64,000 nucleotides of DNA. Origin: Escherichia coli. Lineage in GTDB: Bacteria > Pseudomonadota > Gammaproteobacteria > Enterobacterales > Enterobacteriaceae. The DNA lies in assembly GCF_003334815.1 (NCBI RefSeq), contig NZ_QOWO01000014.1; one strand, 5' to 3'. A program made the position numbers. Shown piece after piece: positions 63,601 to 64,000 of the stretch. Each line of letters starts with the position of its first letter. The first letter of the stretch is position 1.

Positions 63601-64000
63601 ATCTCTGGTCAAGTCCTCTCGTGACTCTGGAACGAGTACAGGACCATACAGTTAGCTTCTGGGGTAATGCCTTGAGGAGACCTATAGGTTTGGTGATTGA
63701 TTGTTATAAATATCATCACCTCTTAAGGTATTCCCTTAGAGTTAATCTTTAATTGTGTCTTTAAGTAAACTATAAGTTAATACTATAATTTAATCTTTAA
63801 TTGTGTCTTTAATTAAACTATAAGTTAACTTTAAGTTAAGCCCTGAGAGATCCCCTCATAATTTCCCCAAAGCGTAACCATGTGTGAATAAATTTTGAGC
63901 TAGTAGGGTTGCAGCCACGAGTAAGTCTTCCCTTGTTATTGTGTAGCCAGAATGCCGCAAAACTTCCATGCCTAAGCGAACTGTTGAGAGTACGTTTCGA

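What the first reader, a model, noticed from the sequence alone, without database searches (positions are those of the whole stretch)
63836..64000. Minus-strand coding potential running off the window edge (frame ambiguous)
Two minus-strand frames are open for about 50 codons up to the window end, terminating at 63836-63838 (...WLRFGEIMRGSLRA-stop) or slightly later (...FTHGYALGKL-stop). I cannot decide between the frames or identify the product. Its position just inside the putative inserted element makes it likely cargo of that element.
Basis: seen in the sequence. Interest (0 to 1): 0.25.

Follow-up and report, generated by a model that had tools for sequence, protein, structure and literature searches.

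The report
End of an IS10 insertion sequence
The open reading frame running off the window edge is the last 47 codons of the transposase of IS10, a long-known jumping gene of enteric bacteria, which has landed inside a small genomic island of an E. coli chromosome; it is ordinary.

Summary
Two minus-strand frames are open to the window edge, with stops at 63836-63838 and 63856-63858. Open frames of this kind occur by chance at about 9% of random positions in this window.

Identity settles what it is. Window 63843-64000 is 158/158 identical to the inside end of IS10-Right of Tn10 (plasmid R100), and only 152/158 to IS10-Left. It is 100% identical to hundreds of E. coli copies annotated as an IS4-family transposase gene.

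The real frame is the one ending ...FTHGYALGKL-stop. It gives residues 356-402 of the 402-aa IS10 transposase. The stop codon lies inside the terminal inverted repeat, which starts at 63843 (CTGAGAGATCCCC).

The other frame is spurious. It runs across the element's terminus into flanking DNA, and in a full IS10 it is closed four codons beyond the window edge.

The IS sits in a 9-bp target, AGTTAAGCC (63834-63842). Related strains carry this target uninterrupted, within a tandem-repeat tract of a small integrase-bearing island at tRNA-Gly (glyU), next to the ETT2 type III secretion cluster.

So this is a secondary IS insertion, not cargo of the island. None of 5,426 complete E. coli genomes has this junction. 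Already known; low interest.

The parts
63843..64000 (-). Inside-end portion of IS10-Right: the first 158 bp of a 1329-bp element, read from the inside end. The rest lies beyond the window.
   Evidence: It is 158/158 identical to IS10-Right of Tn10 in R100 (NC_002134 43950-44107) and 152/158 to IS10-Left. It is 100% identical to the J53 chromosomal copy and to hundreds of E. coli and plasmid copies.
63856..64000 (-). 3' end of the IS10 transposase gene: codons 356-402 plus the TGA stop at 63856-63858. Base 64000 belongs to the preceding, cut codon.
   Evidence: Translation matches residues 356-402 of the 402-aa protein WP_001339197.1 exactly. The residues L383, A391 and A399 are those of IS10-Right, where IS10-Left has S, T and V. 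The fragment gives a weak match to the C-terminus of NCBIfam NF033591; the full protein scores 404 bits.
63843..63865 (.). Inside-end terminal inverted repeat of IS10 (CTGAGAGATCCCCTCATAATTTC). It contains the Dam site GATC at 63849-63852 and the transposase stop codon.
   Evidence: Aligning it with the outside end of the J53 copy gives 16 matches in the first 23 positions. The definition of inside and outside ends comes from PMC3159471.
63834..63842 (.). The 9-bp insertion target AGTTAAGCC. The second, duplicated copy is expected beyond the far end of the IS, outside the window.
   Evidence: These are the 9 bp directly abutting the IS terminus. The same 9-mer with the same flank is uninterrupted in strains 14EC001 and TB4019. 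The J53 copy is flanked by a 9-bp duplication, CCCAGCGCC. The target fits the IS10 hotspot consensus NGCTNAGCN at 5 of 6 specified positions (consensus from my own knowledge).
63836..64000 (-). Spurious alternative open frame (54 codons in the window, stop at 63836-63838).
   Evidence: It runs from IS10 across the terminus into flanking DNA. It has no NCBIfam match. In a full IS10 this frame is open for only 56 codons and has a stop four codons upstream of the window edge.

Best explanation
Window 63843-64000 is the inside end of a copy of insertion sequence IS10, of the IS10-Right type (IS4 family; NCBI labels it 'ISVsa5 family'). The minus-strand ORF is the C-terminal 47 codons of its DDE transposase. 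Its stop codon is embedded in the terminal inverted repeat.

Shown here: sequence identity, the reading frame, the position of the terminus, and the existence of the empty target site in related strains.

Inferred from established knowledge of Tn10/IS10:
- The complete element would be 1329 bp, ending near 65171 and followed by a second copy of AGTTAAGCC.
- It arrived by non-replicative cut-and-paste transposition. A transposase dimer synapses the inside and outside ends, with IHF bound at the outside end. It excises the element and inserts it with a 9-bp staggered cut.
- Activity is held down by Dam methylation (the inside-end GATC at 63849-63852, plus a site in the transposase promoter) and by the antisense RNA-OUT and Hfq at the far end.

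The inside end, not the outside end, abuts chromosomal DNA. This is therefore a solitary IS10 rather than the outer boundary of an intact Tn10. The insertion lies in a non-coding tandem-repeat tract of the glyU island, about 380 bp beyond the stop of the integrase gene in relatives, and probably has little phenotypic effect.
For: - Identity: 158/158 to IS10-Right of R100 Tn10 and 152/158 to IS10-Left. 100% identity over 159 bp to copies in E. coli genomes (1,028 genomes have a match, up to 45 places per genome) and in plasmids of Escherichia, Salmonella, Klebsiella and others, all annotated as an IS4-like transposase.
- Protein: the J53 copy and R100 IS10-Right carry the same protein accession, WP_001339197.1. 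The window peptide equals residues 356-402 of that 402-aa protein. The full protein matches NF033591 'IS4 family transposase' at 404 bits and Pfam DDE_Tnp_1.
- Element structure: the J53 copy is 1329 bp with imperfect terminal inverted repeats and a 9-bp duplication.
- Secondary insertion: the flank 63821-63842 is 100% identical to an uninterrupted site in strain 14EC001, and the 9-mer is also intact in TB4019.
- Background on the ends, IHF, Dam and RNA-OUT: PMC3159471 and PMC5006887.
Against: - Only 158 of 1329 bp are in the window. Completeness of the element, the catalytic DDE residues (all upstream of residue 356), the outside end and the target duplication cannot be seen.
- The target matches the hotspot consensus at only 5 of 6 positions.
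- No public genome searched carries this junction, so the sequence beyond 64000 could not be recovered.
Confidence: 0.97

Rival explanations
1. The IS10 end is one boundary of a larger IS10-mediated structure: an 'inside-out' Tn10 transposition product, or an IS10-promoted adjacent deletion or inversion. In that case the DNA beyond the IS would not be the rest of the glyU island.
For: The inside end abuts the chromosome, as it would in inside-out products. This island is rearranged relative to its relatives: 1.65 kb with two genes is missing at 63614-63636. No complete genome shares the junction.
Against: The 1.65-kb difference ends about 200 bp from the IS terminus, not at it, so IS10 action does not explain it. 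Solitary IS10 copies are very common in E. coli chromosomes (4,146 chromosomal places). The flank runs cleanly up to a good 9-bp target.
Confidence: 0.07
2. The copy is a truncated or otherwise dead IS10 remnant, in which only the inside-end portion survives.
For: Fragmentary copies exist. 1,968 genomes hold some match to full-length IS10, but only 1,175 hold a place covering 80% or more of it.
Against: The 158 bp carry no substitution relative to functional IS10-Right, which suggests a recent insertion. Most records that match this end do hold full-length copies.
Confidence: 0.1
3. The other frame (stop at 63836-63838) is a real gene, or both frames encode overlapping island cargo unrelated to any IS.
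For: It is open for 54 codons in the window.
Against: It crosses the IS terminus. It is closed four codons beyond the window edge in full IS10. It has no family match. The DNA is 100% IS10. Open frames of this length are common by chance.
Confidence: 0.01

Closest known systems
IS10-Right of transposon Tn10 (plasmid R100, Shigella flexneri; NC_002134 43950-45278)
   Same: Identical at all 158 visible bases. Same inside-end inverted repeat, same Dam site, same transposase C-terminus.
   Different: Here the inside end faces chromosomal DNA rather than the tet(B) region, so the copy is solitary and not in a Tn10 context. Only 12% of the element is visible.
IS10-Left of Tn10 (R100, 36132-37460)
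   Same: Same element family and same end structure; 96.2% identical over the 158 bp.
   Different: Six substitutions in the 158 bp and three amino-acid differences in the last 47 residues. The window copy follows IS10-Right at every one.
Chromosomal IS10 copies of E. coli laboratory and field strains (J53, DH5alpha and poultry isolates; PGAP label 'IS4-like element ISVsa5 family transposase')
   Same: 100% identity over the visible part. The J53 copy is 1329 bp, with a 9-bp duplication and a 402-aa transposase.
   Different: The insertion site differs. This site, in the glyU island repeat tract, is occupied in none of the 5,426 complete genomes.

Membership tests
IS10 (IS4 family insertion sequence) | Nucleotide identity to the reference element IS10-Right | tested here: met
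   158/158 identical to R100 IS10-Right, against 152/158 to IS10-Left.
IS10 (IS4 family insertion sequence) | Terminal inverted repeat starting CTGA..., here the inside-end version with a GATC site | tested here: met
   CTGAGAGATCCCCTCATAATTTC at 63843-63865, with GATC at 63849-63852. It matches the outside end at 16 of the first 23 positions.
IS10 (IS4 family insertion sequence) | A single 402-aa transposase ORF that ends within the inside-end repeat | tested here: inconclusive
   Residues 356-402 and the stop at 63856-63858 are present and identical. Residues 1-355 lie outside the window.
IS10 (IS4 family insertion sequence) | DDE catalytic domain (Pfam DDE_Tnp_1) in the transposase | not testable with these tools
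   In the full protein the domain spans residues 90-327, entirely beyond the window edge. It was shown only for the identical reference protein.
IS10 (IS4 family insertion sequence) | 9-bp direct duplication of the target, with preference for NGCTNAGCN | tested here: inconclusive
   One copy of the target, AGTTAAGCC, abuts the end and fits 5 of 6 consensus positions. The empty site exists in relatives. The second copy would lie beyond the window. The J53 copy shows a 9-bp duplication.
Composite transposon Tn10 | IS10 outside ends face the host DNA and inside ends face the tet(B) module | tested here: not met
   In R100 the inside ends face gltS...tetR/tet(B)/tetC. Here the inside end abuts glyU-island DNA. 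This is therefore not the outer boundary of an intact Tn10.
Cargo gene of the glyU genomic island | Present at the same position in related copies of the island | tested here: not met
   Related islands in 14EC001, TB4019 and NMBU-W12E19 have the site uninterrupted and no IS10 there. No complete genome has the junction.

The most novel reading that the evidence does not exclude
The IS10 insertion, in the tandem-repeat tract between the integrase gene and the distal end of the glyU island, might alter excision or regulation of that island or of the neighbouring ETT2 genes. Alternatively, the copy might be one end of a new IS10-bounded composite transposon that mobilises island or downstream DNA. 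Nothing in the 158 visible bases supports either reading beyond position.
Probability: 0.03. Interest if true: 0.3.

Novelty: already known. Interest (0 to 1): 0.04.

Why it matters
It matters only for annotation. The ambiguous ORF at the window edge should be labelled as the 3' end of the IS10 (IS10-Right type) transposase gene, and the alternative frame should be discarded. The insertion is strain-specific, being absent from 5,426 complete E. coli genomes. It could serve as a lineage marker, and it shows that IS10 has been active in this strain. No new biology is implied.

Tried and rejected
- A scan of the GTDB species-representative genomes for the exact 31-bp junction, meant to extend the sequence past 64000, found nothing. 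I did not use the second genome scan or the metagenome scan. A strain-specific junction is unlikely to be there, and the identity of the element was already settled.
- An NCBIfam scan of the 47-aa fragment alone gave only a weak match (E = 0.014) to the C-terminus of the IS4 transposase model. The 54-aa alternative-frame peptide gave none. Nucleotide identity was the decisive test.
- I considered whether the 1.65-kb difference from related islands (63614-63636) was an IS10-promoted adjacent deletion. I rejected this because its endpoint is about 200 bp from the IS terminus.
- My first reading placed the IS terminus at 63842. Alignment with the J53 copy and its 9-bp duplication corrected this to 63843.

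Full report
**Observation.** The minus strand of 63836-64000 has two open frames, as described. From base 64000 there are 54 stop-free codons ending ...WLRFGEIMRGSLRA, then TAA at 63836-63838. From base 63999 there are 47 codons ending ...FTHGYALGKL, then TGA at 63856-63858. The third frame is closed repeatedly. This alone is not beyond chance. At 20,000 random positions and strands in the window, two of three frames were open for 47 or more codons 9.4% of the time. Composition alone gives 0.066 and 0.044 for single frames of 47 and 54 codons.

**Identity.** A megablast of 63842-64000 against 5,426 complete E. coli genomes found matches in 1,028 genomes. There were up to 45 places per genome, on both chromosomes and plasmids, and 884 of the 1,265 matching records had a best place at 99% identity or better. 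The listed 100% matches all lie under genes annotated 'IS4-like element ISVsa5 family transposase'. The plasmid collection gave 1,175 records across Escherichia, Salmonella, Klebsiella, Enterobacter, Vibrio and others. This is the signature of an insertion sequence.

In E. coli J53, the copy that holds the window segment is 1329 bp long. It is bounded by CTGAGAGATCCCC... at one end and CTGATGAATCCCC... (inverted) at the other, is flanked by a 9-bp duplication (CCCAGCGCC), and encodes one 402-aa protein, WP_001339197.1. The same protein accession is annotated for the right-hand IS of Tn10 in plasmid R100. There, two IS copies bracket gltS...tetR(B)-tet(B)-tetC in inverted orientation.

The window's 158 bases (63843-64000) are 158/158 identical to R100 IS10-Right and 152/158 to IS10-Left. 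The three amino-acid differences between the two within the last 47 residues all follow IS10-Right. IS10-Right is the copy that encodes the functional transposase (PMC5006887).

**Frames.** The peptide RNVLSTVRLGMEVLRHSGYTITREDLLVAATLLAQNLFTHGYALGKL equals residues 356-402 of the transposase. The true CDS therefore ends with the TGA at 63856-63858, inside the terminal inverted repeat. The full protein matches NCBIfam NF033591 (IS4 family transposase, 404 bits against a cut-off of 152) and Pfam DDE_Tnp_1 over residues 90-327. The catalytic domain thus lies wholly beyond the window edge.

The alternative frame has no family match. It runs across the IS terminus (63842/63843) into flanking DNA. 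In a full IS10 it is open for only 56 codons, with a stop four codons upstream of the window edge. It is an accident.

**Context.**
- The last 24 kb of the window are 99.9% identical to chromosomes of poultry-associated E. coli. They cover yqeF-yqeG-ygeH and the ETT2 type III secretion genes up to ygeQ.
- Just past ygeQ, 63493-63515 is an exact 23-bp copy of the 3' end of tRNA-Gly (glyU). In relatives, this repeat and the complete glyU gene bracket a roughly 4.4-kb island. The island carries two hypothetical genes (one KilA-N), a tandem-repeat tract and a site-specific integrase next to glyU.
- The window's island lacks the 1.65 kb that holds the two hypothetical genes (63614-63636 stands in their place). 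It then resumes homology at 63637-63839, at 93-95% identity, through the repeat tract.
- The IS10 terminus follows at 63843. The adjoining 22 bp (63821-63842) are 100% identical to an uninterrupted site in strain 14EC001. The 9-mer AGTTAAGCC is also intact in TB4019, about 380 bp beyond the integrase stop codon.
- The IS is therefore a secondary insertion into the island, not island cargo. AGTTAAGCC fits the IS10 hotspot consensus NGCTNAGCN at 5 of 6 specified positions (consensus from my own knowledge of the Kleckner-laboratory work).
- No complete E. coli genome carries this junction, nor does any GTDB representative genome.

**Mechanism (inferred from established knowledge).** IS10 moves by non-replicative cut-and-paste. 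A transposase dimer pairs an inside end with an IHF-bound outside end in a transpososome (PMC3159471). Expression and activity are limited by Dam methylation and by the antisense RNA-OUT with Hfq (PMC5006887). The inside-end GATC is at 63849-63852. In Tn10 the inside ends face the tet module. Here the inside end faces the chromosome, so the copy is a solitary IS10, not the edge of an intact Tn10. Less likely alternatives are an inside-out composite or an IS10-promoted rearrangement (about 7%) and a truncated remnant (about 10%). Only sequence beyond 64000 can decide between them.

**Verdict.** This is a known element at a new, strain-specific site. Interest is low.

Noticed in passing
window 63493-63515: An exact 23-bp copy of the 3' end of tRNA-Gly (glyU), on the minus strand, with no tRNA gene attached; ARAGORN finds only tRNA-Met at 5244-5320. 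It is the distal attachment-site repeat of a small integrase-bearing island. In related strains that island lies between ygeQ and the complete glyU gene.
   Followed up: partly
window 63614-63636 (compare L004 1324-2974): Relative to the closest complete genomes, a 1.65-kb segment of the glyU island is absent and replaced by about 23 bp. The missing segment carries two hypothetical genes, one annotated as KilA-N. No complete E. coli genome shares this short form. The endpoint is about 200 bp from the IS10 end, so IS10 does not obviously explain it.
   Followed up: partly
window 63744-63839 (compare L004 3081-3275, L003 6107-6245): An AT-rich tandem-repeat tract built on a unit of about 48 bp (TTAATCTTTAATTGTGTCTTTAAGTAAACTATAAGTTAATAC...). 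Copy number differs between strains: about 2 here and about 4 in TB4019. It lies between the island's integrase gene and its distal end. Its function is unknown. IS10 inserted at its edge.
   Followed up: partly
window 61727-63379: The ygeQ region is split into two minus-strand ORFs (61727-62497 and 62543-63379). In strain 14EC001 much of the same stretch is annotated as a single 419-aa glycoside hydrolase family 15 protein. ygeQ here therefore looks like a disrupted gene. The neighbouring YscQ/HrcQ and SpaN/EivJ genes of ETT2 are annotated as pseudogenes in relatives.
   Followed up: no
window 57825-61595: The export-apparatus genes of the ETT2 type III secretion system (SctU/T/S/R/Q-like ORFs) lie on the minus strand immediately upstream of the finding.
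   Followed up: no
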